Of a DNA stretch of 64,000 nucleotides, positions 23,709 through 53,253 are shown one piece after another. The position numbers and the translations under genes were made by a program. Within the stretch, counting starts at the first letter, position 1. Each line of letters begins with the position of its first letter. The DNA comes from Escherichia phage EC.W14-3, in sequence record PP496998.1, one strand, 5' to 3'. Below the pieces are notes generated by a model, which saw nothing but the letters and a program-made list of their open reading frames with translations, searched no databases and was not told the origin of the DNA.

Positions 23709-26703
23709 ACTCTATCGTTAAACCATTGATAGCAGCATTACTATTAACATCATTATCTATAACATTATAGAAAAGGTATGGATGGTTCAGTCTCACCGAG
23801 ACATGCCTGTCAACACCGATCGTATATGTCTTAGATGTGTGTGGGTGTCCATATTCATTTGAGAATTGACTACCACCAGCTTCAAATATGTAAGTACCTG
23901 AACCAGTTGTCTGAGGTCGGAACCTGTTAATATGCTTCTGATTCCACTCATTCGTCACATTATCAAAATCTATACCAGTCCTCTCCAACCTCATTTCCAG
24001 AGGCTTCTCTATAACAACATCATTTAGCCTGTCATAGAAGTAATCAAGAGCACCTACATCCACTTGATAGAATCCCTTCAAGAATGAACCTACTATCGTA
24101 ACCCTCTGTCTAAAGTTTGTTGCATCCTTTCTCCAAACGAGTTCTTTAATAGATGGGTCATCCCAAGTGATTTCTTGGAAGTCAGACCAGATTGGACCTC
24201 TTTCTAAAACAGGAGGATCAACCAGACCAATACACTGAGCATATGGGATAGTACGGAATGACCAAGTATCAAACTCGTAGTTCCATACAGCAGCTTTAGT
24301 ACAAGCGAAGCTTTCTTTTGGCTCTCCCGGACCTACGTACAGAACCCAAACTTCTTTCTTATCCTGATGCAAATGCACTCGAGTTGCTAGAGGGTTAACC
24401 AGACATACCTCGTTAATCAGCATATTCTTAACACGGTTAGATGCAATTGACTTCTTAGTTGCACCGTTGTGTAAGATTACATCGTTCTGAGTAACTACGA
24501 AGTGACTACCTTCTACTTCAACCACACACTCAGGAGCAAGGATACCAGAGTCGTTAAAGAGCTTCTTGAACATTAGAGGTTGGTACGTGTTATTAGTCGG
24601 AGAACCAATATACGTTTCAAACTCTGTATAAACGAACAAGTAATCTTTAAGAGGTAGGATATCAATCAAGCTACCATTAGAATCTGCTAAGTCAATGTAA
24701 CCAGCATACCCATTCTCTAGAGCCTGAGTCTGCCCTACGATGTTAGAAGCTAAGTCCGAAGACACAACTCGATCATAGGCAAAGTCATCCCACAGTGTAG
24801 GAGCCTTGTTCTCATTGGCAAAGTTAGACCAACGAAGACGAAGCGGGTAGTTAGTGGTAACACCAGAAGCATTAGCCTCTCTCATATTCAGAGCAAAAAG
24901 ACGGTTGTTAAAAGATCTTACTCTCTCACATTTCCAGTTAAACTTCTTGACTGAAGGGTTTCCATCACTATCCACCACTGTTTGCTCACCCCACCCCGGA
25001 AGGTCTACAAAGTATTCTGATTCGAATTCTTTTACCTGAGGAGTTTCATAGTGAGTTGTAGCAACTGCACAGTTAGAGATAACAGCGTGATACCAAGGGT
25101 AGTCATCAAAAGCATCGTAATCCTTCTGAGTCATCTGACTGACAGTACATGTTACGTTAATCTCTCCTTTACGAAGAGCAACCAGTTTGATAGATTTACC
25201 AGTGACTGAAGTTGTAGAAACATAACCAGTTTTATCAACAGACCACTGATAAGAGTACTCACCTTCTGGAGAAGCTGTGGCTGTAATGACAACCTCTTCA
25301 CCAACATCAAGAGAAGCGCTGACAATATCTAAGGTTACAGATGACAAAGGGGTTGCCAGTAAAGAAGCTCTTGCAAAACCTTCAATGTCATTCACGTTAG
25401 AGTAGTCATAGAAGTTATTACCTTCGTACATCCCTGACGTATCAATACCGGATGTAGGCTCAGCAAAATAAACCGTCTCTTCACTTTCAGGAGGAGTTAC
25501 TACTTCTTCCTCTTGAGTTTCTACTGACTCTGACACAGGAGCAGCAAATGCCATAGAACTTGTTCTCATTGTTCTTCCAGCTAAATCTACACGTACAGTA
25601 CAGACAGCAACCCTGTTGCCTTCTTCAGTGGTAGCTGTAATCTCAGTAAAGCCAGCAAGTAAAGCGTTGATCGTCCCTTGTGTGCTAGTCCCTGATACTG
25701 TTGCAATATTTGGATTAGAAGAGGTCCAAGTAATATTTTGATTAGGGGCGTTAGCAGGAGAAAGGGTAGCAGTTAAGATATACTGAGAACCTCTACTCAC
25801 AATAACATCTGACTGGCTTAAAGAGATACTATCAATCTGAGGGATGGAAACAACCTCACAAGAAGCAGTCTTAGTTCCGTTATCAGCAGTGATTGTTACA
25901 TTACCTTCTCCATTCGCTGTAATGACAGCAGTTAAAGAATTGGCGTTAGGGGTTACGGATACAATAGAAGCGTTATTGCTGGACCAAGTTACAGGAGTCT
26001 TGCCAGTAACAGCCGTGAGAGTAGTAGTCCCTCCTTTACGAATTGTAACAGTGTCTTGACTCAAGAAGATGCCTGAATCACCGTCGATGATATTAACAGC
26101 AATCTGAGCCACTACGGATTCGTTGGCAGTAGAGATAGTTACTACAAGATTACCTTCTTTCTCAAAAGATGTTAGAGTAGCAAGTTTAGAGTCACTAGGG
26201 TCTACCGTAATACTTCCATAGGATGAGTTACTAACCTCCCAAATAAGATCAGTATTGTTAGCATCAGCAGGGAGAAGAGAAACCTCTAGATTCTTGGTCT
26301 GATTGAAGTTCATTGAGATAGTTGATTCTTTAGGAACGATCTGAGAAACAACTGGATAAATCTTAATTGAGGCAGAAGCCTTCTTAGTGACTGTAGCAAC
26401 CTTACGGCTAATATCAGTCAAGCTTTCATCTGTCAGTTTATATAACTTCTTATCCGTACCTACAACAAGAAAGCTATTACCTGCGCTATAATAATCGAAA
26501 GGCATAGAAACGAAAGACAGAGGGGTTAAATCCTTATCTTCATCTACATAAGAAAGAGGGGCATTGCCCCCCGTCTTAAATACTCTCTGCTCAACAAATC
26601 GAGCATTTATAGCATTAGTGAAAGCATTAGGAGCTAAGTCTGTCGGAGCCTGATCAGCGATAATGCCTACAGCACCTAGTGACTTTATTGGATACAGCGC
26701 CAT
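23686..26703 (-). CDS. large tail/baseplate protein with bacterial Ig-like (Big_2-type) repeats
   Basis: several about 80-aa repeats of the form ...ITATTEEGNRVAVCTV... / ...TITADNGTKTASCEV... Confidence 0.5.
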   Translation of the reverse strand: MALYPIKSLGAVGIIADQAPTDLAPNAFTNAINARFVEQRVFKTGGNAPLSYVDEDKDLTPLSFVSMPFDYYSAGNSFLVVGTDKKLYKLTDESLTDISRKVATVTKKASASIKIYPVVSQIVPKESTISMNFNQTKNLEVSLLPADANNTDLIWEVSNSSYGSITVDPSDSKLATLTSFEKEGNLVVTISTANESVVAQIAVNIIDGDSGIFLSQDTVTIRKGGTTTLTAVTGKTPVTWSSNNASIVSVTPNANSLTAVITANGEGNVTITADNGTKTASCEVVSIPQIDSISLSQSDVIVSRGSQYILTATLSPANAPNQNITWTSSNPNIATVSGTSTQGTINALLAGFTEITATTEEGNRVAVCTVRVDLAGRTMRTSSMAFAAPVSESVETQEEEVVTPPESEETVYFAEPTSGIDTSGMYEGNNFYDYSNVNDIEGFARASLLATPLSSVTLDIVSASLDVGEEVVITATASPEGEYSYQWSVDKTGYVSTTSVTGKSIKLVALRKGEINVTCTVSQMTQKDYDAFDDYPWYHAVISNCAVATTHYETPQVKEFESEYFVDLPGWGEQTVVDSDGNPSVKKFNWKCERVRSFNNRLFALNMREANASGVTTNYPLRLRWSNFANENKAPTLWDDFAYDRVVSSDLASNIVGQTQALENGYAGYIDLADSNGSLIDILPLKDYLFVYTEFETYIGSPTNNTYQPLMFKKLFNDSGILAPECVVEVEGSHFVVTQNDVILHNGATKKSIASNRVKNMLINEVCLVNPLATRVHLHQDKKEVWVLYVGPGEPKESFACTKAAVWNYEFDTWSFRTIPYAQCIGLVDPPVLERGPIWSDFQEITWDDPSIKELVWRKDATNFRQRVTIVGSFLKGFYQVDVGALDYFYDRLNDVVIEKPLEMRLERTGIDFDNVTNEWNQKHINRFRPQTTGSGTYIFEAGGSQFSNEYGHPHTSKTYTIGVDRHVSVRLNHPYLFYNVIDNDVNSNAAINGLTIEFAVGGRR

Positions 26704-39243: not shown

Positions 39244-40785
39244 TTAGTAACTCTGATTCCATCTGCTTACGTTTGCCTCATACAGAGAAGCACTTCCGTA
39301 GCTAACGTCATGCTTAGAGCGACCACGATGTGTAACAGAGCACGCTGAATAGCGCATTGCATCCATTAAGTCATCATGTTCTTTAATAATCTTACCAACC
39401 TTACGGTGATATCTAGCTTTCTCTTCGAATAGCTTAGCATTAGCGGCTGTGTTAAAGATTTTAAAGCGTCCACTCATCATTCTTTCTCGGATATCTGTGA
39501 TTCCCGGTTCTACAAAGAAGTTCTTTTTACCATCCATTCCAATTTTGTTGTAGAAGGTCTCACTCTGTACGTTAACTCCTGCATTCTTATAGAATTGAGC
39601 AACAGATGAGCCACTACCTTTCTCAATATTGTCCGCATCGTGCGGTAGGATGACAGGAATCCACTGACCACGACCATTAATAGCTGGAGCATGATACACT
39701 GGAGTAAAGCCACCTTCTTTATATGAGTCGTAAACATAGATAGTATCCGTGTTTGCATCGTAAGCTGTCCAAACAGCAGCAGTTGGGTGATCAATACCAA
39801 TATCAATTGCACAGACACGTTTCCACGTATCAGGAATTTCGAATGGTTCACATTTAATTGTGTCATCCGATACATCATAAATCAAACCACTTCCTAACAA
39901 TGGCATACCTTTCGAACGCATCTCTAACTGCCACGCTGGAATACCTTCAGTCATATCTTTTATATCTTGGTCAGTGATATGTCCACCTAGGTCTGCATGA
40001 GCATCCCACCAAGAAGCGTTCTGGAAATATAGAGAACCTGTGTTCTCATCCCCTTCGCCTTTCATAAATTTATCTACCAGTTCAGTTAAACCGTTCTCTG
40101 GTGTAGCTGTAATTGTAACTAGACCTTTAGTTGTGAGTGTACGTGTGACGCACTGTGCGAATATAGCCATAGACTCGTATGGATCTTCTTCGTCTAACCA
40201 AATGTAGTCAACTGTTGCACCCATCAATGTGTGTTCACCCTGTTGGGTTGAACGGAATTCTAATGTACTTAAACCGTCAAACTCCCCTCTCTCATTTTGA
40301 TGTTTGATTTGTACGATTTGAAGTTTGTTACCATCTCGTTCTATCGTGTCAATGACGATAGCATCACGAGGAATGACACCTGTCCCCAATAAGTTTGTAT
40401 CCTTTCCGATAGGTGTACCAAACAATTCCTTTTGCAATACTTTCCTTGTGGAATCCCCTGTAATACCAACTGCCCATGCTAAGATAGGTCTTTTAAATTT
40501 ATATCCTGTCCACCAAGTTGGGTAGCGACCTGTGACATGACAAGCAAACTCGTATGCCTCGCTATAAGATTTACCAACACGGTTCGCTGCACACAAGAAT
40601 CTAAAGCGATGCTTCAATCCTGCTGCATAAAATTTCTTTTGGAAGTCATACGCCTTGAAAGACAAAATCTTATTATACTTCCTCCATTGGTCACGCTCTT
40701 TCAACATATTCAATAGTGCTTTCTTTTCCTCTACACTAAGATTGTTACCAGTTAGAGCTTCATAAATTTGTTTATCTAATGACAT
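39244..40785 (-). CDS. terminase large subunit
   Basis: Walker A-like CAANRVGKSY, Walker B-like IWLDEED, C-terminal nuclease-like region; 513 aa. Confidence 0.75.
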   Translation of the reverse strand: MSLDKQIYEALTGNNLSVEEKKALLNMLKERDQWRKYNKILSFKAYDFQKKFYAAGLKHRFRFLCAANRVGKSYSEAYEFACHVTGRYPTWWTGYKFKRPILAWAVGITGDSTRKVLQKELFGTPIGKDTNLLGTGVIPRDAIVIDTIERDGNKLQIVQIKHQNERGEFDGLSTLEFRSTQQGEHTLMGATVDYIWLDEEDPYESMAIFAQCVTRTLTTKGLVTITATPENGLTELVDKFMKGEGDENTGSLYFQNASWWDAHADLGGHITDQDIKDMTEGIPAWQLEMRSKGMPLLGSGLIYDVSDDTIKCEPFEIPDTWKRVCAIDIGIDHPTAAVWTAYDANTDTIYVYDSYKEGGFTPVYHAPAINGRGQWIPVILPHDADNIEKGSGSSVAQFYKNAGVNVQSETFYNKIGMDGKKNFFVEPGITDIRERMMSGRFKIFNTAANAKLFEEKARYHRKVGKIIKEHDDLMDAMRYSACSVTHRGRSKHDVSYGSASLYEANVSRWNQSY

Positions 40786-42269: not shown

Positions 42270-43500
42270 TTCTCCTCTGAATAAGAGTATAAAGGGCACA
42301 TCATAAGACCTACCCGTAAAGGCCACCTCACATTAACACCCGTGAGAATACCTGTATTCATTTTCGTAGTCTTCTTCAGAGAAGCTACCGTATTCATCTT
42401 CTGTCATACATCCCTCTGATAAAGTTAAGACATAAAGGGGACGTCATCTTTGATGACTACTTCACATTAAGGCACCCCCATAAAGGCCATGTCACGTTAA
42501 GGCCTATCCATCCATGTGCTGTGTTTAAGCTTACCACATTTACTACATCTCCAAGTGGACTTATAAAGGGTGTGAACTCTTTCATCCCCGTAAGCTTTGC
42601 GTATCCGATAGTACTCATGATCACATTTGAATTGCTTAATGATTAACTTAATTTTCCACATAAGTTCTCTTTCAACCTTATATATAAGAGTTTAAAATAC
42701 AGATTTATAAAAAATAAAGATGTATATATCTGTTTAAAATTCTGATTTGACCGAGTGGGGCTAGCCGCTCGCCGCGCGTTTCCTAAAAGGGGGGAGTCCT
42801 CATTTAAAAAAGGGTTATTGGCAATGCCTTTACACCTCCTTCCACGTTCCAACCTTTCCCCGTGCCTACTCCCCGTTATTCTTTCCCCGTGTATACCATC
42901 CTATTCATTAGCTACCCGTTTATTTAGTACCCCTTTAGAGAGTGAGAGAAAGGCTATACTCTGATAAGGCACAATCATAACAGGTCTAATAATACCGTAT
43001 TGTTACCGTTCAGCTCCCCATAGTTTGAATGTAAATAGTTTCAATAGTAATGATTATGAGTGCAATAATGATGTATGTATTAATTAAGTGGATGATTGTA
43101 ATTCTTTTAATAATTGCTTTTATTCTTTTCTTTTTCAGCGTGCCTTTGTGAGCGTAGCGAACGTCTTTGATGTTTGAGTTATACAATTATTTAAGTGGTA
43201 TATTATTACCGCACTATCTTGCTATGTTTCCCCGTGGTCTACCCTGCGGTTGTATGCTCCCCGTGTCCTGGTCTGTTGGTCTGCTACCCGTAGCACCAGC
43301 GTAACACCCGTAGGATTAGTGTTATAAAGTAACAATAGCTAGTAAGCTGATTCTCTGAGTATGGAAGGTTTAGTAAATTAAATTCCTTTAGTTTTCAGTG
43401 AGTTATAAGAAAGTTAGAAAATAAATGGTTGACAGGTTTTTCCTTTATTATATAGTTGCGATTGTAATTTGTAGTTTTCATCAACCATAAGGAATATCAA
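42270..43500. promoter_or_regulatory. ORF-free divergent control region with two families of short direct repeats
   Basis: three repeats of TAAAGGCCAC..CACATTAA and about eight CCCCGT(G)/ACCCGT motifs; divergent genes on both sides. Confidence 0.45.
43429..43457 (+). promoter_or_regulatory. sigma70-type promoter
   Basis: TTGACA, 16-17 nt spacer, TATAGT, about 45 nt upstream of the first early ORF. Confidence 0.5.
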
Positions 43501-44373
43501 ATGTCTAAAGTAGCAATTAACCACTTGAACAAAGCAAACGAAAGCCTTTCCTCTTTAGGCTTAACCGTTGGTAGTCCTGATGCGTGGATGGAAAACGAAA
43601 GCGCACGTAAAGGATTCAAAAACTCTGTAATGCTGGCTTGCTTGATCATTAATTCTACTGCGAACGCCTTACAGTGTGAAGATGAAAGCACGTTCAAAGA
43701 GAATGGCTTTACCGATATACAGGACGCTATCAACTGTTACATTCAGGCAAATTTGGATAGCTGGAATCAGAAAGATTGGCCTGAGTCATGCCGTGATGTG
43801 AAAGCTGAATTATCCCGCTTGTCTGTCATGGTTGAAGCATGGAACAAGAAAAACAAGAAACAACCAATCAAGCCTACTGTTGCAAGTAAGATTATGAAGT
43901 CTGTTAATCTGGCAAGTTATGCACTGGTTGCAGCTATCGGTGTTAGTGCACTGGTCACGTCTCTTTCTGATAAGGCTATCGCTAGTCCTGCTCCTGCAAC
44001 TGATGCGGCTAGTGTCTTCTCTAGTTCCATCAATAAGGGTTGGATGATTTGCAACGGTGCGGATAGTGACGGCAATAATATCGTGCTAAAGATGAAATTT
44101 AGCAACGTAACAAATGATGGAGTTCTCTTTCAATCTAAAACGTTAGATAATCAGCCTAACAGTGATCTAGTTCTCAAGCGTACTGATAACGATGCGGATA
44201 TGGTGACATTTGGCACTGTACAACGTTATGAAGACGTTAAAGCTGTAACCAACCTAGTGAGCTATGGCCCGATCAATGAGTCGATGATCGCCACCACGGT
44301 TTACAATAACGCTGATAATGCTGTTTATACTGTTCACGTTAATTTAGCCAACTGCATTAAGGCTAGTAAGTAA
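43501..44373 (+). CDS. early protein with one central TM segment
   Basis: 290 aa; hydrophobic SVNLASYALVAAIGVSALVTSL. Confidence 0.45.
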   Translation: MSKVAINHLNKANESLSSLGLTVGSPDAWMENESARKGFKNSVMLACLIINSTANALQCEDESTFKENGFTDIQDAINCYIQANLDSWNQKDWPESCRDVKAELSRLSVMVEAWNKKNKKQPIKPTVASKIMKSVNLASYALVAAIGVSALVTSLSDKAIASPAPATDAASVFSSSINKGWMICNGADSDGNNIVLKMKFSNVTNDGVLFQSKTLDNQPNSDLVLKRTDNDADMVTFGTVQRYEDVKAVTNLVSYGPINESMIATTVYNNADNAVYTVHVNLANCIKASK

Positions 44374-44397
44374 ATAACCTATTTTGGGAGTGTAAAA

Positions 44398-44661
44398 ATG
44401 GCTATCAAAGAAATTAAGTTATCTAATGGCTTTTCTTGTTTTGTTGGTGGAAGCTCTATCCTGTTTAATACACTTGATGGTCAGATAACGTTACCTGTTA
44501 TCACTTTTTGCAGGATGGAATATCAGCCTCTTAAAGATTGGCTAGCCTTTGCTGATTTTGAAATTACCCGTGAAGACTTCAAATCAATCTATATTGACGG
44601 TGATTTATCACTGGCTAACCTGCTCAATCATGGACTAATTAAGGGTGATATTAATGGGTAA
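44398..44661 (+). CDS. hypothetical early protein
   Basis: ORF track. Confidence 0.4.
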   Translation: MAIKEIKLSNGFSCFVGGSSILFNTLDGQITLPVITFCRMEYQPLKDWLAFADFEITREDFKSIYIDGDLSLANLLNHGLIKGDING

Positions 44662-44908
44662 TGAAACAATCGCACTGATTGACACGCACAATTACGGTGG
44701 CGTTACGCTCTCCTTTGATGAGTCAATCGACTACACTTATTTGTCCTTTCTAACTAAGGGTGAAATAAAAACTATTAGCTTTCCTGCGGTCTATTTAGTA
44801 CAGGATTATCTCACTATTGGGAAGTATTTAGCCCAACGCGGGATTCTTCTGTCGCTGGAAGAAGTGGAACAGGTTAGCGTAGCATTTTTTGGCGAGGATA
44901 GCAACTAG
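44645..44908 (+). CDS. hypothetical early protein
   Basis: ORF track; overlaps previous stop. Confidence 0.4.
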   Translation: MILMGNETIALIDTHNYGGVTLSFDESIDYTYLSFLTKGEIKTISFPAVYLVQDYLTIGKYLAQRGILLSLEEVEQVSVAFFGEDSN

Positions 44909-45000
44909 TGATTCATGATTATTTTTGGCGTTGCTTGTTCGTTGTTACAGTGGCGTTATTCGTCGCTGATATGCTTTATTCTTATATTCTCTAACTATAG

Positions 45001-45378
45001 GTGATTATTATCATGGGTATTATCAAATTTGTAGTAAAAGTATTCGTGGGCTTCTTCCTTGTCGTTCTCCTGCTGGGTGTGCTCCTATCGGCTATGGGTA
45101 GCGTTAAGGCTGCAACATTCTCCCCTGCTACGGTGGAAGGTTTACAGTGCACCTATTTGATAGAAAATTATGATACCGGTAAAAAGTCACCTAAAGTTAT
45201 TATTTTGCATGTAAATGATTTCGATCATGTGCAATCAGATAGTAAAACTATTCTACTGGTAAATGAAACTACTGGTAAACAAATCACGGTCGATCACTTG
45301 ATGCGCTCATCGTTAACGCTCTTTGATGAGTCCATGAATGAAATGGCATCCGGTAATGGTCAATGTGTAAATCCATAG
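45001..45378 (+). CDS. secreted or membrane early protein
   Basis: N-terminal signal/TM FVVKVFVGFFLVVLLLGVLLSAMG. Confidence 0.4.
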   Translation: MIIIMGIIKFVVKVFVGFFLVVLLLGVLLSAMGSVKAATFSPATVEGLQCTYLIENYDTGKKSPKVIILHVNDFDHVQSDSKTILLVNETTGKQITVDHLMRSSLTLFDESMNEMASGNGQCVNP

Positions 45379-45682
45379 GCTTAATCTTTCTCCTGTATTG
45401 TGCCGTAGTCATGCCTATGGTCATAATTTATCTGATGCTTTAAATCCTTCCTGTAAGCCTCCTAGTGAGGCTTTTCTCTTTTATGAGGTGATTGTATGCC
45501 TTACTCCCTTTTAGCTCGTTGTGGTGCGTTACAGGCCGCTTATTATTGCTTTACAAGCCGTTTTCTATGATGTATCACGCGCCCCCGCTCTTTTACCTCC
45601 TGATTTCTTCCGGTGTCCTACCGACAATAAAATAAATTCCTTTATAAAACAGTGAGATGAAAAATAATTTGAAAAAAGGGTA

Positions 45683-45710
45683 TTGACATGATTTTCCTTT
45701 ATAGTAATAT
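45683..45710 (+). promoter_or_regulatory. sigma70-type promoter
   Basis: TTGACA, 16 nt spacer, TAATAT. Confidence 0.5.
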
Positions 45711-45839
45711 GAATCCCGTAGTAAGCAGTAAGTAACAACAAGTAGTAAAAACTCCTCGATAGGTGATTAGCATCACGGTAAAAGGCTTCAACGGGGAGCG
45801 GTAGGAATACCGACAGTAAGACGCACAATGAAGGTGCTA

Positions 45840-45849
45840 CGCTCTTTAA
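45840..45849 (+). repeat. CGCTCTTTAA motif, copy 1 of 4
   Basis: further exact copies at 45950, 46078 and 46311, each followed by an A-rich run. Confidence 0.5.
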
Positions 45850-45888
45850 AAATCAGGCTAGAAAGTGAAAATATTCTTAAAAAGAGTA

Positions 45889-45917
45889 TTGACACCGAAA
45901 ACAGCCTGATTCATAAT
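45889..45917 (+). promoter_or_regulatory. sigma70-type promoter (duplicate of the promoter at 46192)
   Basis: TTGACA, 17 nt spacer, CATAAT; about 50 bp near-identical to 46180..46240. Confidence 0.55.
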
Positions 45918-45949
45918 AAGCACTCAGTCAGCGATGACTTAAAAAATCC

Positions 45950-45959
45950 CGCTCTTTAA
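45950..45959 (+). repeat. CGCTCTTTAA motif, copy 2
   Basis: exact 10-mer. Confidence 0.5.
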
Positions 45960-46077
45960 AAACTTATCATCTTGCCTTTTCGCATAGATTCACGCGAGAT
46001 AAGGGAAAAGAATAAAAGAAGATGATAAAAAAGAGATTGACAAGCTAACACGATGTGTTAAGCTGTAAATGCTACAC

Positions 46078-46087
46078 CGCTCTTTAA
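46078..46087 (+). repeat. CGCTCTTTAA motif, copy 3
   Basis: exact 10-mer. Confidence 0.5.
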
Positions 46088-46191
46088 CAATATGAATCAT
46101 AAGTTAAGCATCACCGCTTAATCTTCAATCAAATAAAGCTGATTGATATATCCTCCCAATAGCGGGAACGACGAAAAAGATTAAAAAGTGG

Positions 46192-46220
46192 TTGACAGCG
46201 AAAACAACATGATTCATAAT
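46192..46220 (+). promoter_or_regulatory. sigma70-type promoter (duplicate of the promoter at 45889)
   Basis: TTGACA, 17 nt spacer, CATAAT. Confidence 0.55.
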
Positions 46221-46310
46221 GAGCACTCACTAAGCAAATCACCGCTTCAGTGAAAAGCGTAACAACGGCTAACAGTTGCATAGTGTGAGAAAGCACACTG
46301 ATAGATTTAC

Positions 46311-46320
46311 CGCTCTTTAA
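46311..46320 (+). repeat. CGCTCTTTAA motif, copy 4
   Basis: exact 10-mer. Confidence 0.5.
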
Positions 46321-47141
46321 TAATTTAAACATTCTCCTATATCGGTTGAATATGTTAGATGATAATAACCATCGGATAACATACCAGATAAAACGGTGTA
46401 AGATTCTCTAAACTATCAGAGAAAACAATCTTATAATCCCTTGCTGGAAACGTCACCACTGATAAACGGATTCATTGAGTGTACGCAAAGATTTAAGCTA
46501 ATCGCCCACGGTTAAGGGTAGCGGCGGTCATCGCTAACAAGGCGCTACAGTGAAAGAAGTTAATCAGGGTAGGCAAGCCCGAAGAATTAACGCTCAATTG
46601 AGAGCGGCGGGGAGTGGTTAAAAAGTGGCAAATTGCTATTTAACAATAAGGTTTAGTGTGAACGTTTACGATGTGAATGATTTGAGGCCACTATTGATGG
46701 CGTACATAGTCAGTTTATGTAGTAAACTTGCCGAAAGATATAAAACGTCAGAACATTAGACGGTCAATGACTCTTTCACAATAGCATCCCGTTGTGGGCG
46801 ATGGCTAGTGATTGAGAGTTGATACAAAAGGATAGGCGAGAGCGAAAGCAAAGTAGACGATATTGCCGACGGTTACAATAAACGTAACTAATTAGAGTCG
46901 GACGCACTGCCTTATTGTGATGATTGATCATCGCTATCAGGTCGGCTTCGTTTATAGCGACTAATTAAAGATACCAGATGAAACATCACGGATAAGGGGG
47001 CGGCAAGGTTAACTCCTGATAAGACCGCCCCGCTTACCTATAACTACTTAACAACGAGTGGTTATAGTTAAGTTAATAGTGACTTAAACAAGCTCATAGA
47101 GAGCGGGGCAATAGCGCCCTTACAAGTGAAAGGTGAATATC

Positions 47142-48041
47142 ATGGCTAAAATCTTTACTCTGGTTAACGAATCCGGTTTTAATGCTCTGGCTAACAACAT
47201 TCGCAGTAATAACGCGGCGATCAAACAAGATGTTTCTAACTTCCTGTTAGGGCACTTACAGCACTTCCGCAGTAATGGTAAGAAGCTGGACGTATTGCAG
47301 TCGGCGGTTGACTTTCTGTTAACTGAACGTTTCCGTGATATGGATGTTATTGCCACTGCAATTACTTTCTTAACTCCTATCAAGTTTAACACCGATGCGG
47401 CAAATGGTCGTAAAAAGTGGATTAATCTGGAAGGTGAGGCGAAAGCTAAAGAAGACGCGAAAGAAGCGCAAATTAAAACCAAAATGGAACAAAACCGCGC
47501 TCGCTGGTCAAATGCTTTCGAGAATTTTGCTTTAGGCCGTGAAATTGAAGTTGATAATCCTAACTTTTACAAGGGTTGCAATGACAACGTGGCGGCACAC
47601 CTGCAAATCCCGGCGAAAAACAAGGAAGATTTTAATCAGGATATTTACGCTTTAGTTGAACGCTTGAATGCAATCCGTATTGAAGCCAAATTATTGGCTG
47701 ATGAGCGCAATGGTGCTACCAGCGATAACACTATCGCCTTAAGTGAAGAAGTGGGCAAAGTTAAGAAGTCATTCGACTCGCTCATCAAGAAAGTCACGGC
47801 CTCAACGGTAGCGATCTCTGATAACTACCTGATGAACGCATCAAGCAAGGAATTAGAATCACTCGATTCATACGCTGATGAAATGGAAAAGACTGTTGCA
47901 GCTATGCAGGAGAAGTTAGAAAGTCTGCGCGGTCGTATCTCTTCAACGGTTGCTACCCGTACCGAACAAGCTGCGAAAGCAGAAGAGGAAGAAGTATTGC
48001 GTAAAGCGGCTGAAATTATGGCGGCACGTCAAGCGGCATAA
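47142..48041 (+). CDS. hypothetical early protein (300 aa, helical)
   Basis: ATG with AAAGGTGA SD; first long ORF after the 1.7 kb ORF-free stretch. Confidence 0.5.
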   Translation: MAKIFTLVNESGFNALANNIRSNNAAIKQDVSNFLLGHLQHFRSNGKKLDVLQSAVDFLLTERFRDMDVIATAITFLTPIKFNTDAANGRKKWINLEGEAKAKEDAKEAQIKTKMEQNRARWSNAFENFALGREIEVDNPNFYKGCNDNVAAHLQIPAKNKEDFNQDIYALVERLNAIRIEAKLLADERNGATSDNTIALSEEVGKVKKSFDSLIKKVTASTVAISDNYLMNASSKELESLDSYADEMEKTVAAMQEKLESLRGRISSTVATRTEQAAKAEEEEVLRKAAEIMAARQAA

Positions 48042-48867: not shown

Positions 48868-49311
48868 GTGGCTAAATCTAAAATCAGCATGAAGGGCGGG
48901 CGTTGTTTTTCTATATCTGAACTGGAGAAAGAGAATCCAAAGGCAACCAATCACGTCAGCAAGCGTAGTTTAAAACGTCGTGCTGCAAAGGCTGAAGCTG
49001 AATCCCATATCCCTTCTAGTGTGGCAAAACGTGTAGGCCATCGTGTCCATCGTGCTGATGCGTTATTGTTAGCCGATCATAAACGTTCTTTGTTAAAGAG
49101 CGGGGGAGCAAAAACAGAAGAGGAGAAGAAGTTAGAAATCTTCTGTAATGGTCGCACCCGTGGTAAACAGAAGTTTAAGGGTAGCACGAAAGACCCGCAG
49201 GCTTTTCCTAAGACAAGCCAGTGCGCACCTGATGTTTTCTACGCAGACAGTAAACACAAGTGGGGCGTTGAAAAATACATTGATCCCATCAAAGAGGCGA
49301 GGGTAAAATGA
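48868..49311 (+). CDS. basic hypothetical protein
   Basis: ORF track; Lys/Arg-rich. Confidence 0.4.
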   Translation: MAKSKISMKGGRCFSISELEKENPKATNHVSKRSLKRRAAKAEAESHIPSSVAKRVGHRVHRADALLLADHKRSLLKSGGAKTEEEKKLEIFCNGRTRGKQKFKGSTKDPQAFPKTSQCAPDVFYADSKHKWGVEKYIDPIKEARVK

Positions 49312-53177: not shown

Positions 53178-53253
53178 GCGCTCTTAGCTCAATGGATAGA
53201 GCAGTAGCCTTCTAAGCTATTGGTTACAGGTTCGAGTCCTGTAGGGCGCACCA
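53178..53253 (+). tRNA. tRNA-Arg, anticodon UCU
   Basis: hand-folded cloverleaf: 7-bp acceptor stem (one G-U), D-arm GCTC/GAGC, anticodon loop CTTCTAA, T-arm ACAGG-TTCGAGT-CCTGT, discriminator A and encoded CCA. Confidence 0.8.

What the first reader, a model, noticed from the sequence alone, without database searches (positions are those of the whole stretch)
45380..47140. About 1.7 kb ORF-free early stretch with duplicated sigma70 promoters and a recurring CGCTCTTTAA motif: candidate small-RNA locus
No ORF of 60 aa or more on the plus strand across about 1.76 kb in an otherwise densely coding genome. It holds at least three near-consensus sigma70 promoters (45683, 45889, 46192); the last two are about 50-bp near-identical duplicates. 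Four exact copies of CGCTCTTTAA, each followed by an A-run, lie 26 to 125 nt downstream of the promoters or TTGACA boxes. The distal 800 bp (46330..47140) is GC-richer and has inverted repeats (for example GGGGCGG ... CCGCCCC around 46990..47035). This could encode short non-coding RNAs, be a decoy/host-factor titration region, or be an origin.
Basis: seen in the sequence. Interest (0 to 1): 0.6.

Follow-up and report, generated by a model that had tools for sequence, protein, structure and literature searches.

The report
Phage early leader: BoxA sites, large RNA
The gene-free stretch is the control region of the main early operon of a phiEco32-like E. coli phage: four strong host-type promoters, each followed by a ribosomal-RNA-type "BoxA" anti-termination signal, lead into a conserved, highly folded 0.8-kb non-coding RNA that matches no catalogued RNA family.

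Summary
The window is a Kuravirus (phiEco32-like podophage). Region 45380-47140 is the spacer between phiEco32 genes 125 and 124.

The recurring CGCTCTTTAA is not an sRNA signature. It matches the gamma-proteobacterial BoxA consensus GYTCTTTAANA, the NusB/NusE site of rRNA operons. It occurs 4 times here, against 0.5 matches expected in the whole 64 kb. All 21 relatives examined carry 3-5 copies, alternating with near-consensus sigma70 promoters. T7 carries the same sequence 62 nt after promoter A3.

The distal 0.8 kb (46324-47120) is non-coding, with no codon periodicity. It varies less (0.094) than third codon positions of gene 124 (0.22). Its length is fixed: last BoxA to ATG is 825-836 nt. 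It folds into about 40 helices. 77 of 241 pairs show compensatory double changes, against 4-12 in slid controls. G-U cells outnumber A-C cells 567 to 19, so the folded molecule is the + strand RNA.

There is no Rfam hit, host homologue, conserved ORF, terminator, DnaA box or iteron.

Best reading: Nus-factor (rrn-type) antitermination carries RNA polymerase through a long ribosome-free, structured leader into the early operon. What the RNA itself does is unknown.

The parts
45455..45483 (+). Intrinsic terminator (hairpin AAGCCTC-CTAGT-GAGGCTT plus a T-run) that ends the upstream short operon (genes 128-125 homologues, 43501-45378).
   Evidence: The same site is annotated as a terminator in SU10 and described in PMC4281155.
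45662..45710 (+). Promoter P1: A-rich upstream tract, -35 TTGACA at 45683-45688, 16-nt spacer, -10 TAATAT at 45705-45710. The start site is predicted near 45717.
   Evidence: (repeat D5). The start site is inferred, not mapped.
45840..45852 (+). BoxA1 (CGCTCTTTAAAAA), about 123 nt after the P1 start. It is preceded by the hairpin GCAC-AATGAAG-GTGC.
45868..45917 (+). Promoter P2: A-rich tract, TTGACA at 45889, 17-nt spacer, CATAAT ending at 45917. It is a 44-nt duplicate of P4.
   Evidence: (D1, D5).
45950..45962 (+). BoxA2 (CGCTCTTTAAAAA), about 26 nt after the P2 start. It is preceded by the hairpin GTCA-GCGA-TGAC.
46037..46064 (+). Promoter P3: TTGACA at 46037-46042, 16-nt spacer, TGtTAAGCT (extended -10). 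In several relatives the -10 is TAGAAT (11/12 matches).
   Evidence: and reading.
46078..46090 (+). BoxA3 (CGCTCTTTAACAA), identical to the E. coli rrn BoxA core GCTCTTTAACAA.
46192..46220 (+). Promoter P4: TTGACA, 17-nt spacer, CATAAT. The start site is predicted near 46227. It is present at the same distance (-111 to -124 from the last BoxA) in all 22 phages.
46263..46299 (+). Two leader hairpins 5' of BoxA4: CAAC..GTTG (46263-46278) and the boxB-like GTGTG-AGAAAG-CACAC (46282-46299). Both show compensatory changes in relatives.
   Evidence: (helices 2 and 3).
46311..46323 (+). BoxA4 (CGCTCTTTAATAA; in many relatives GCTCTTTAACAATTTA, as in rrnB). It is invariant in position, 825-836 nt before the gene 124 ATG, in all 22 phages.
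46305..46315 (+). 5' strand of a predicted long-range helix. AUUUACC, just 5' of BoxA4, pairs with GGUGAAU (47128-47138), the Shine-Dalgarno region of gene 124.
   Evidence: (helix 4). Only one-sided change is seen (G-U to A-U), with no double covariation, so this helix is inferred.
46324..46622 (+). RNA domain I: a multi-helix domain closed by helix 46324-46336/46610-46622. It includes a long irregular arm at 46452-46574.
   Evidence: (helices 5-18).
46623..46641 (+). Hairpin between the domains. The invariant BoxA-like TGCTATTTAACAATAAGG (46634-46651) overlaps its 3' side. That sequence differs from the BoxA consensus at position 4 (C to A).
   Evidence: helix 19; D3.
46643..46918 (+). RNA domain II: closed by the 10-bp helix 46643-46652/46909-46918. 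The inner helices carry many compensatory changes.
   Evidence: (helices 20-31).
46919..47120 (+). 3' series of hairpins, including GGGGGCGG/CCGCCCC (46997-47031) and CTATAACTAC/GTGGTTATAG (47038-47067). No T-run follows the last one.
   Evidence: (helices 32-40).
47128..48041 (+). Shine-Dalgarno region (AAGGTGA, 47130-47136) and gene 124 homologue (ATG at 47142; 299 aa; function unknown). This is the first gene of the long early operon.
   Evidence: (strong codon periodicity).

Best explanation
This is the promoter and leader module of the main early operon of a phiEco32-like phage.

Shown by sequence:
- An intrinsic terminator closes a short upstream operon.
- Four cassettes follow, each a strong sigma70 promoter, a short leader (usually with a hairpin) and an rrn-type BoxA.
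- Then comes an untranslated + strand RNA of about 820 nt. It is conserved and folds into about 40 helices: two closed domains plus a series of 3' hairpins. It ends at the ribosome-binding site of gene 124.

Inferred mechanism: host RNA polymerase starts at these promoters soon after DNA entry. Each nascent BoxA binds NusB-NusE(S10). With NusA, NusG and SuhB this converts the polymerase into the Rho-resistant, fast form used on rRNA operons. That form lets it cross 0.8-1.4 kb of ribosome-free RNA and continue into the long operon of small early genes without any phage antiterminator protein.

The folded RNA is made under this complex. Most likely it acts in cis, by stabilising or processing the transcript and by gating translation of gene 124 through pairing of its 5' edge with the Shine-Dalgarno sequence. 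A separate trans-acting role after processing is not excluded.
For: Identity and context.

BoxA:
- 4 of 4 copies match the published consensus GYTCTTTAANA (PMC5725501).
- The window has 7 matches against 0.52 expected; the four copies here lie within about 480 nt on the sense strand.
- Copy 3 equals the rrnB core, and copy 4 in many relatives equals the rrnB sequence GCTCTTTAACAATTTA.
- All 22 phages have 3-5 copies alternating with promoters, although cassette number and spacing vary.
- A hairpin lies 5' of most copies, the rrn order boxB then boxA. The one before BoxA4 covaries (helix 3).
- The upstream operon has a 45-nt leader, no BoxA and an intrinsic terminator.
- BoxA is known to protect long untranslated RNA from Rho (PMC7665894).
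- T7 has CGCTCTTTAACAA 62 nt after A3.

RNA:
- Variable sites show no codon periodicity (134/115/117 by phase, against 56/250/86 in gene 124).
- Variability is 0.094, against 0.22 at third codon positions.
- Length is fixed.
- RNAalifold gives 241 pairs. 99.2% of cells are paired and 77 pairs show double changes, against 4-12 in slid controls. 0 of 500 shuffles reach the observed values.
- Strand: alifold energy is -251.9 for + against -155.1 for the reverse complement, and G-U cells number 567 against 19 A-C.
- The single-sequence fold has z = -5.4.
- No + strand terminator lies inside the region.
Against: - No transcript, NusB/E binding or Rho data were available. The two phiEco32 transcription papers could not be read.
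- No boxC-like UGUGUGGG follows the BoxA copies.
- The folded distal part is G-rich and structured, so it may be a poor Rho substrate anyway. C-over-G windows occur mainly in the cassette part and at 46376-46428.
- The anti-Shine-Dalgarno helix has no double covariation.
- The 22 sequences are related, 74-100% identical, so counts of cells overstate independent events.
- Nothing shows what the RNA does.
Confidence: 0.62

Rival explanations
1. Small-RNA locus. Each promoter drives a discrete short non-coding RNA, and the motif marks its body or its end.
For: Strong promoters lie in a gene-free stretch. Short hairpins follow each start site.
Against: No terminator-like site lies on the + strand between 45700 and 47140. 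The motif plus A-run is the BoxA consensus. The cassette leaders differ in sequence and number between relatives, while only the BoxA is constant. There are no Rfam matches.
Confidence: 0.08
2. Transcription-activated replication origin. The folded, G-rich transcript would act as a primer or R-loop RNA, in the manner of ColE1 RNA II or the promoter-dependent T7 and T4 origins.
For: Strong promoters lead into a structured untranslated RNA. GC skew is positive (0.2-0.3) over 46500-47000.
Against: There are no DnaA boxes, iterons, tandem repeats or AT-rich unwinding block. Genome-wide GC skew simply follows gene orientation, with its minimum near 43-44 kb, about where alignment with phiEco32 places the genome end, not here. 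Base-pairing conserved along the whole 820 nt argues for a folded RNA rather than a persistent RNA-DNA hybrid.
Confidence: 0.07
3. DNA-level element, for example a T5-like injection stop signal or another protein-binding or cruciform region that separates a first-entering 'pre-early' segment from the rest of the genome.
For: It lies 2.7-4.4 kb from the inferred genome end, just after a short operon that has its own promoter and terminator. It is a gene-free region rich in inverted repeats.
Against: The pairing is strand-specific: 567 G-U cells against 19 A-C cells, and -251.9 against -155.1 kcal/mol. That fits RNA, not double-stranded DNA cruciforms.
Confidence: 0.04
4. Host-factor sink. Four very strong promoters with BoxA on a multiplying genome titrate RNA polymerase, NusB/E or SuhB away from host rRNA operons, as a host shut-off device.
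For: BoxA and promoter copy number is high and evolutionarily amplified, at 3-5 cassettes.
Against: There is no direct evidence. Titration does not explain the conserved 820-nt fold or its fixed distance to gene 124. Early sigma70 transcription is shut off by gp79 in the middle phase (PMC12276001).
Confidence: 0.05
5. Unrecognised or decayed protein-coding sequence.
For: Some GenBank records annotate small ORFs in the spacer.
Against: There is no 3-nt periodicity of substitutions and no + strand ORF of 40 aa or more that is conserved. The annotated ORFs run across promoters and BoxA and are interrupted in this window.
Confidence: 0.01

Closest known systems
E. coli rRNA operon leader (P1/P2, boxB-boxA-boxC) and the rrn antitermination complex (NusA/B/E/G, SuhB, S4)
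   Same: Tandem strong sigma70 promoters with A-rich upstream tracts. The hairpin-then-BoxA order. A BoxA identical or nearly identical to GCTCTTTAACAA(TTTA). A long structured untranslated RNA downstream. A predicted leader-trailer type helix that brings the two ends of the folded RNA together.
   Different: No boxC. One BoxA per promoter rather than one per leader. The RNA has no similarity to rRNA or to any host sequence. It is followed by protein-coding genes. Factor binding is untested.
BoxA upstream of CRISPR arrays and of suhB (Stringer 2020, PMC7665894; Baniulyte 2017, PMC5725501)
   Same: A consensus BoxA placed at the start of an unusually long untranslated transcript. In those cases it prevents Rho termination.
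   Different: Here the setting is a phage, the copies are multiple, and a single large folded RNA follows instead of repeats. In suhB the BoxA lies within 50 nt of the start codon and represses expression; here it is about 830 nt away.
Phage T7 early region (promoters A1-A3, leader, RNase III site R0.3, gene 0.3)
   Same: A virulent coliphage using host polymerase for early genes. Several strong promoters near one genome end point inward. CGCTCTTTAACAA lies 62 nt after the last promoter and before the first gene. The same arrangement occurs in T7-like IMG/VR contigs.
   Different: T7 has one BoxA and a 175-nt leader after A3. The Kuravirus has a BoxA after each promoter and an 820-nt folded RNA. 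I found no paper in the held library that discusses the T7 copy.
Lambda nutL/nutR (N-dependent antitermination)
   Same: A BoxA on the nascent early transcript recruits NusB/E for processive antitermination of a phage early operon.
   Different: Lambda BoxA is CGCTCTTA(A/C) and is followed by a boxB hairpin bound by N. Here the BoxA is the full rrn type, the hairpin is 5' of it, and no N-like protein is evident. This makes it closer to the N-independent rrn mode.
RNA-only antiterminators and large phage-associated non-coding RNAs (HK022 put, EAR, GOLLD, ROOL)
   Same: A structured RNA encoded in a phage or operon leader, with a possible direct effect on the transcribing polymerase or a separate RNP role.
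   Different: No Rfam family is matched at E up to 10. put and EAR are 70-120 nt. GOLLD and ROOL are not leaders of early operons.

Membership tests
BoxA (NusB/NusE, rrn-type antitermination site) | Match to the gamma-proteobacterial consensus GYTCTTTAANA | tested here: met
   All four copies match. The window holds 7 matches against 0.52 expected, and 0 of 100 shuffles reach that number. The consensus is taken from PMC5725501.
BoxA (NusB/NusE, rrn-type antitermination site) | On the sense strand, in the transcribed leader downstream of a promoter | tested here: met
   Each copy lies about 7-123 nt after the predicted start of a promoter scoring 9-11 of 12. sigma70 promoters in this spacer are reported for SU10 and phiEco32. 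Start sites were not mapped here.
BoxA (NusB/NusE, rrn-type antitermination site) | Conserved in relatives independently of the flanking sequence | tested here: met
   22 of 22 phages carry 3-5 copies of GCTCTTTAA[ACGT]A[AG], while cassette number, spacing and leaders vary.
BoxA (NusB/NusE, rrn-type antitermination site) | Single-stranded in the nascent RNA | tested here: met
   In the consensus fold only 2 nt of BoxA4 (46314-46315) are paired, and only in the unproven long-range helix 4.
BoxA (NusB/NusE, rrn-type antitermination site) | rrn architecture: boxB hairpin 5' of BoxA and GU-rich boxC 3' of it | tested here: inconclusive
   A hairpin lies 5' of most copies. 34 of 67 distinct upstream segments fold with z below -1.5, and helix 3 covaries. 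No UGUGUGGG-like boxC is present. As far as I recall from the rrn literature, neither is strictly required for rrn antitermination.
BoxA (NusB/NusE, rrn-type antitermination site) | Binds NusB-NusE, recruits SuhB, and suppresses Rho termination | not testable with these tools
   Needs ChIP, in vitro transcription, or BoxA and nus mutants.
Lambda-type nut site | BoxA followed 3' by a boxB hairpin that binds a phage N protein | tested here: not met
   No hairpin lies directly 3' of any copy; the hairpins are 5'. The neighbouring proteins have no known family. An N-like protein was not searched for genome-wide.
Bacterial or phage small-RNA gene | A promoter plus an intrinsic terminator delimiting a transcript of 50-300 nt | tested here: not met
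   No + strand terminator-like site lies between 45700 and 47140.
Any Rfam 15 family | Covariance-model match | tested here: not met
   Nothing in the region at E up to 1. Only chance-level hits (11-20 bits, far below gathering scores) at E up to 10.
Conserved structured RNA (generic criteria) | Purifying selection without coding signal, compensatory base changes, and strand specificity | tested here: met
Replication origin | DnaA boxes, iterons, an AT-rich unwinding element, or a skew switch | tested here: not met

The most novel reading that the evidence does not exclude
The 820-nt RNA is not merely a leader. On this reading it is a new class of large phage non-coding RNA, produced as a 'pseudo-rRNA'. 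It would be transcribed from rrn-like promoter and BoxA cassettes and folded with the help of the rrn antitermination complex. Its ends would be clamped by a leader-trailer helix, and it would be released by processing as a stable RNA or RNP. That product would then act in trans on the host, for example by binding ribosomal or assembly proteins, RNases or an immune sensor. The BASEL study reports Gordonclarkvirinae as unusually resistant to the tested defence systems (PMC11990801), but nothing links that resistance to this RNA.
Probability: 0.2. Interest if true: 0.9.

Novelty: new variant of a known kind. Interest (0 to 1): 0.7.

Why it matters
It would give phiEco32-like phages a concrete, protein-free way to keep host RNA polymerase going through a long early operon. 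These phages are common, are used in therapy cocktails, and are called poorly studied by the BASEL authors. The group that studies them wrote in 2022 that the antitermination strategy of the related phage 7-11 "remains to be defined" (PMC8948821).

The same BoxA in T7 suggests that hijacking the rRNA antitermination machinery may be a general early-gene strategy of virulent coliphages, not only of lambdoid phages.

Separately, the work adds an 820-nt RNA with strong covariation support and no known family. Large structured RNAs are rare. One that sits at the very start of infection and is present in every member of the clade found in the phage collection (97 records) is an obvious target for deletion, structure probing and partner identification.

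Tried and rejected
- Rfam scans at E up to 1 and up to 10 gave nothing credible.
- tRNA/tmRNA scan: only the tRNA-Arg at 53178.
- Host homology: blastn of 46222-47160 against 5,426 E. coli genomes gave no match.
- Wider distribution. blastn and tblastn find the RNA and gp124 only in the same 97 Escherichia/Shigella phage records. IMG/VR and metagenome pattern scans added only close copies plus one chance hit, L039.
- Homology with the leader of Salmonella phage 7-11: none by nhmmer, and gp151 against gp124 shows no similarity. Too few 7-11 relatives exist (4) to test covariation there.
- Coding hypotheses: no periodicity, no conserved ORF, and the ORFs annotated in relatives are spurious or are insertions.
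- Origin features are absent.
- Protein families of the flanking genes: no Pfam match, and PHROGs of unknown function or carrying inherited doubtful names.
- Literature. The two primary phiEco32 papers are not held. No held paper contains both 'boxA' and 'phiEco32'. The Kuravirus genomics papers checked (YF01, SU10) do not mention a non-coding RNA here. Two paper searches were wasted on too-loose term settings.
- I did not build covariance models. The domains exceed the practical model length, and there was no distant sequence set to search.
Full report
**Context.** The window is a phiEco32-like podophage (Kuravirus, Gordonclarkvirinae). Region 45380-47140 is 100% identical to Escherichia phage EC.W2-6 and 92.8% identical to phiEco32. 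It corresponds to the unannotated spacer between phiEco32 genes 125 and 124. In SU10 the same spacer carries only an annotated terminator. The SU10 paper states that, as in phiEco32, there is a terminator after the upstream gene and three sigma70 promoters in this spacer (PMC4281155). So the promoters were already predicted, but the spacer itself has not been explained. By alignment with phiEco32, the physical genome end lies near window position 42760. The region is therefore 2.7-4.4 kb from that end and points inward.

**Observation check.**
- No + strand ORF exceeds 47 aa.
- The three promoters are at the stated positions and score 10-11 of 12.
- A fourth promoter (TTGACA-16-TGtTAAGCT) lies at 46037.
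- The 45889 and 46192 promoters are 44-nt duplicates.
- CGCTCTTTAA occurs exactly four times on the + strand within 480 nt, with only one further exact copy in 64 kb.
- The GGGGGCGG/CCGCCCC repeat and the modestly higher GC of the distal part are real.

**What the motif is.** The motif together with its 'A-run' is the BoxA element, the NusB/NusE binding site of rRNA operon leaders.
- All four copies match the published gamma-proteobacterial consensus GYTCTTTAANA (PMC5725501).
- The window contains 7 matches against 0.52 expected, and no shuffle reaches 7.
- Copy 3 is identical to the rrnB core GCTCTTTAACAA. In many relatives the last copy reads GCTCTTTAACAATTTA, exactly as in rrnB.

I fetched 21 relatives spanning 74-100% identity. 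Every one has 3-5 copies, and they alternate with near-consensus sigma70 promoters (promoter, BoxA, promoter, BoxA and so on). The number of cassettes, their spacing and their leader sequences differ between phages. Most copies are preceded by a hairpin, which is the rrn order of boxB then boxA. The hairpin before the last copy (46282-46299, GTGTG-AGAAAG-CACAC) shows compensatory changes at three pairs. No boxC-like sequence follows.

The short operon upstream (43501-45378) has its own promoter 45 nt before its first gene. It has no BoxA and ends at an intrinsic terminator at 45455-45473. BoxA is thus associated specifically with the transcription unit that begins with a long untranslated stretch.

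**The distal 0.8 kb.** The sequence from the last BoxA to the gene 124 start codon is 825-836 nt in all 22 phages. It is present in all 97 related phage records at 74-100% identity.

It is not protein-coding.
- Variable alignment columns are spread evenly over the three phases (134/115/117). In gene 124 they are 56/250/86.
- No + strand ORF of 40 aa or more is conserved.

It is nevertheless constrained. Mean column variability is 0.094, against 0.22 at third codon positions next door.

RNAalifold on the 22-sequence alignment A1 predicts 241 base pairs in 40 helices, and 77 pairs show changes on both sides that keep the pair. Counting pairs with controls gave the following:
- 99.2% of cells are paired.
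- 0 of 500 column shuffles reach the observed pairing, double-change count or covariation score.
- Sliding the 3' partners by 1-3 columns, which preserves relatedness, leaves only 4-12 double-change pairs and 34-46% pairing.

The fold belongs to the + strand. The alignment energy is -251.9 kcal/mol against -155.1 for the reverse complement. Within the structure there are 567 G-U cells against 19 A-C cells. The single sequence also folds far better than shuffles (z = -5.4).

**Anatomy in window coordinates.**
- Two leader hairpins: 46263-46299.
- BoxA4: 46311-46323.
- Domain I: 46324-46622.
- A hairpin at 46623-41, overlapped on its 3' side by an invariant BoxA-like sequence (C4 to A).
- Domain II: 46643-46918.
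- A series of hairpins: 46919-47120.
- The Shine-Dalgarno sequence and ATG of gene 124: 47130-47144.

A long-range helix is predicted between AUUUACC, just 5' of BoxA4, and GGUGAAU in the Shine-Dalgarno region. It is kept in all sequences. Two phages change G-U to A-U, but no double covariation is seen, so I treat this helix as inferred.

**What it is not.**
- No Rfam family matches.
- There is no tRNA or tmRNA in the region.
- There is no similarity to any E. coli genome.
- No + strand terminator occurs anywhere between the promoters and gene 124, so there are no delimited small RNAs.
- There are no DnaA boxes, iterons or tandem repeats.
- Genome-wide GC skew simply follows gene orientation.
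- Small ORFs annotated by some depositors in the cassette part run across promoters and BoxA and are broken in this window. A 66-aa ORF in the SU7 and PAS59 lineage has no counterpart in this window's spacer.

**Mechanism.** What is shown is the sequence architecture, its conservation and the RNA fold. What is inferred is the following.

Host polymerase initiates at the four promoters early in infection, and each nascent BoxA recruits NusB-NusE. With NusA, NusG and SuhB the elongation complex then becomes Rho-resistant and fast, as on rRNA operons. This lets it traverse 0.8-1.4 kb of ribosome-free RNA and proceed into the long early operon.

The precedent for this logic is BoxA in front of CRISPR arrays, where it protects an unusually long untranslated RNA from Rho (PMC7665894). 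C-over-G windows that could serve as Rho loading sites occur mainly in the cassette part and at 46376-46428. The rest of the folded RNA is G-rich.

The function of the folded RNA itself cannot be derived from sequence. My ranking is:
1. A cis-acting leader that stabilises or processes the transcript and gates gene 124 translation through the anti-Shine-Dalgarno pairing.
2. A processed, trans-acting RNA.
3. The rivals listed separately (origin primer, DNA-level signal, factor sink).

**Comparison with known systems.** It works like the rrn leader and its antitermination complex. It passes every sequence-level membership test for BoxA that I could run, while factor binding and Rho suppression remain untestable here. 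It is not a lambda-type nut site, because the hairpin is on the wrong side and no N protein is evident.

The closest phage parallel is T7. Reading the T7 genome shows CGCTCTTTAACAA 62 nt after the A3 start site and before gene 0.3. T7-like IMG/VR contigs show the same arrangement. T7 has a single copy and a 175-nt leader after A3. The Kuravirus has one BoxA per promoter and an 820-nt folded RNA.

The distantly related Salmonella phage 7-11 also has about 1.05 kb of non-coding sequence before its first early gene. It folds well (z = -4.5) but has no consensus BoxA and no detectable similarity. Its authors wrote that its antitermination strategy remains to be defined (PMC8948821).

**Novelty and limits.** In the held literature no paper contains both 'boxA' and 'phiEco32'. 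None that I checked discusses a T7 BoxA. The Kuravirus papers I checked (YF01, SU10) mention no non-coding RNA here. The two primary phiEco32 papers could not be read, so prior mention there cannot be excluded.

I class the BoxA cassettes as a new member, or expanded variant, of a known mechanism. I class the RNA as a new structured-RNA family of unknown function.

The main weaknesses are three. There are no transcript or binding data. The 22 aligned sequences are related to one another. Nothing indicates what the RNA does.

Noticed in passing
L162 (T7 NC_001604) locus 412-424, about genome position 811-823: T7 carries CGCTCTTTAACAA, a perfect rrn-type BoxA, 62 nt after the A3 start site and before gene 0.3. 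Several ~40-kb (T7-sized) IMG/VR contigs have ACCGCTCTTTAACAAT 430-830 nt from a contig end; four of the eight checked also have a TTGACA promoter 55-140 nt upstream.
   Followed up: partly
L028 (Salmonella phage 7-11) 8865-9917, - strand: About 1.05 kb of non-coding, GC-rich sequence lies between the genome's right end and the first early gene (151). It folds with z = -4.5. It has no consensus BoxA and no nhmmer similarity to the Kuravirus RNA. Only 4 relatives exist, too few for covariation analysis.
   Followed up: partly
window 49091-49101, - strand: A fifth perfect BoxA consensus (GCTCTTTAACA) lies antisense inside the ORF at 48868-49311. It could be chance or could belong to an antisense transcript.
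   Followed up: no
window 24141-24151 and 39378-39388, + strand: Two GTTCTTTAATA matches to the BoxA consensus lie in the part of the window where the negative GC skew suggests genes run on the - strand. They are probably chance matches.
   Followed up: no
window 46634-46651: TGCTATTTAACAATAAGG is invariant in all 22 phages. It resembles BoxA but has A instead of C at consensus position 4. It sits at the junction of the two RNA domains, loosely recalling the second BoxA in the rrn spacer.
   Followed up: partly
window 45001-45378 and 44398-44661: The names 'terminase' (125 aa, with a hydrophobic N-terminus) and 'polymerase' (87 aa) carried by homologues in GenBank and PHROGs look like inherited mis-annotations. 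There is no Pfam support for either.
   Followed up: partly
L020 873-1073 (SU7_114) and L004 877-1077 (PAS59): In the SU7 and PAS59 lineage an annotated 66-aa ORF (with an annotated ribosome-binding site in SU7) sits between the first BoxA and the next promoter. It has no counterpart in this window.
   Followed up: partly
window 45480-45680: The 200 nt between the terminator and P1 are C-rich (GC skew -0.12 to -0.15). They contain a one-mismatch BoxA variant, CGCTCTTTTA, at 45586. Its role is unknown.
   Followed up: no
window 46989-47022 compared with L162 about 139-170: CGGATAAG followed by CCTGATAAG flanks the GGGGGCGG hairpin here. The same pair occurs in the T7 A1 leader (CCGGATAAGTAGACAGCCTGATAAG). 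This may be coincidence.
   Followed up: no
window 46378-46394 / 46968-46984 and 46528-46544 / 46928-46944: Two pairs of 17-nt internal repeats (82-88% identity) link domain I with the 3' hairpin region. They hint at shared motifs or an old partial duplication within the RNA.
   Followed up: no
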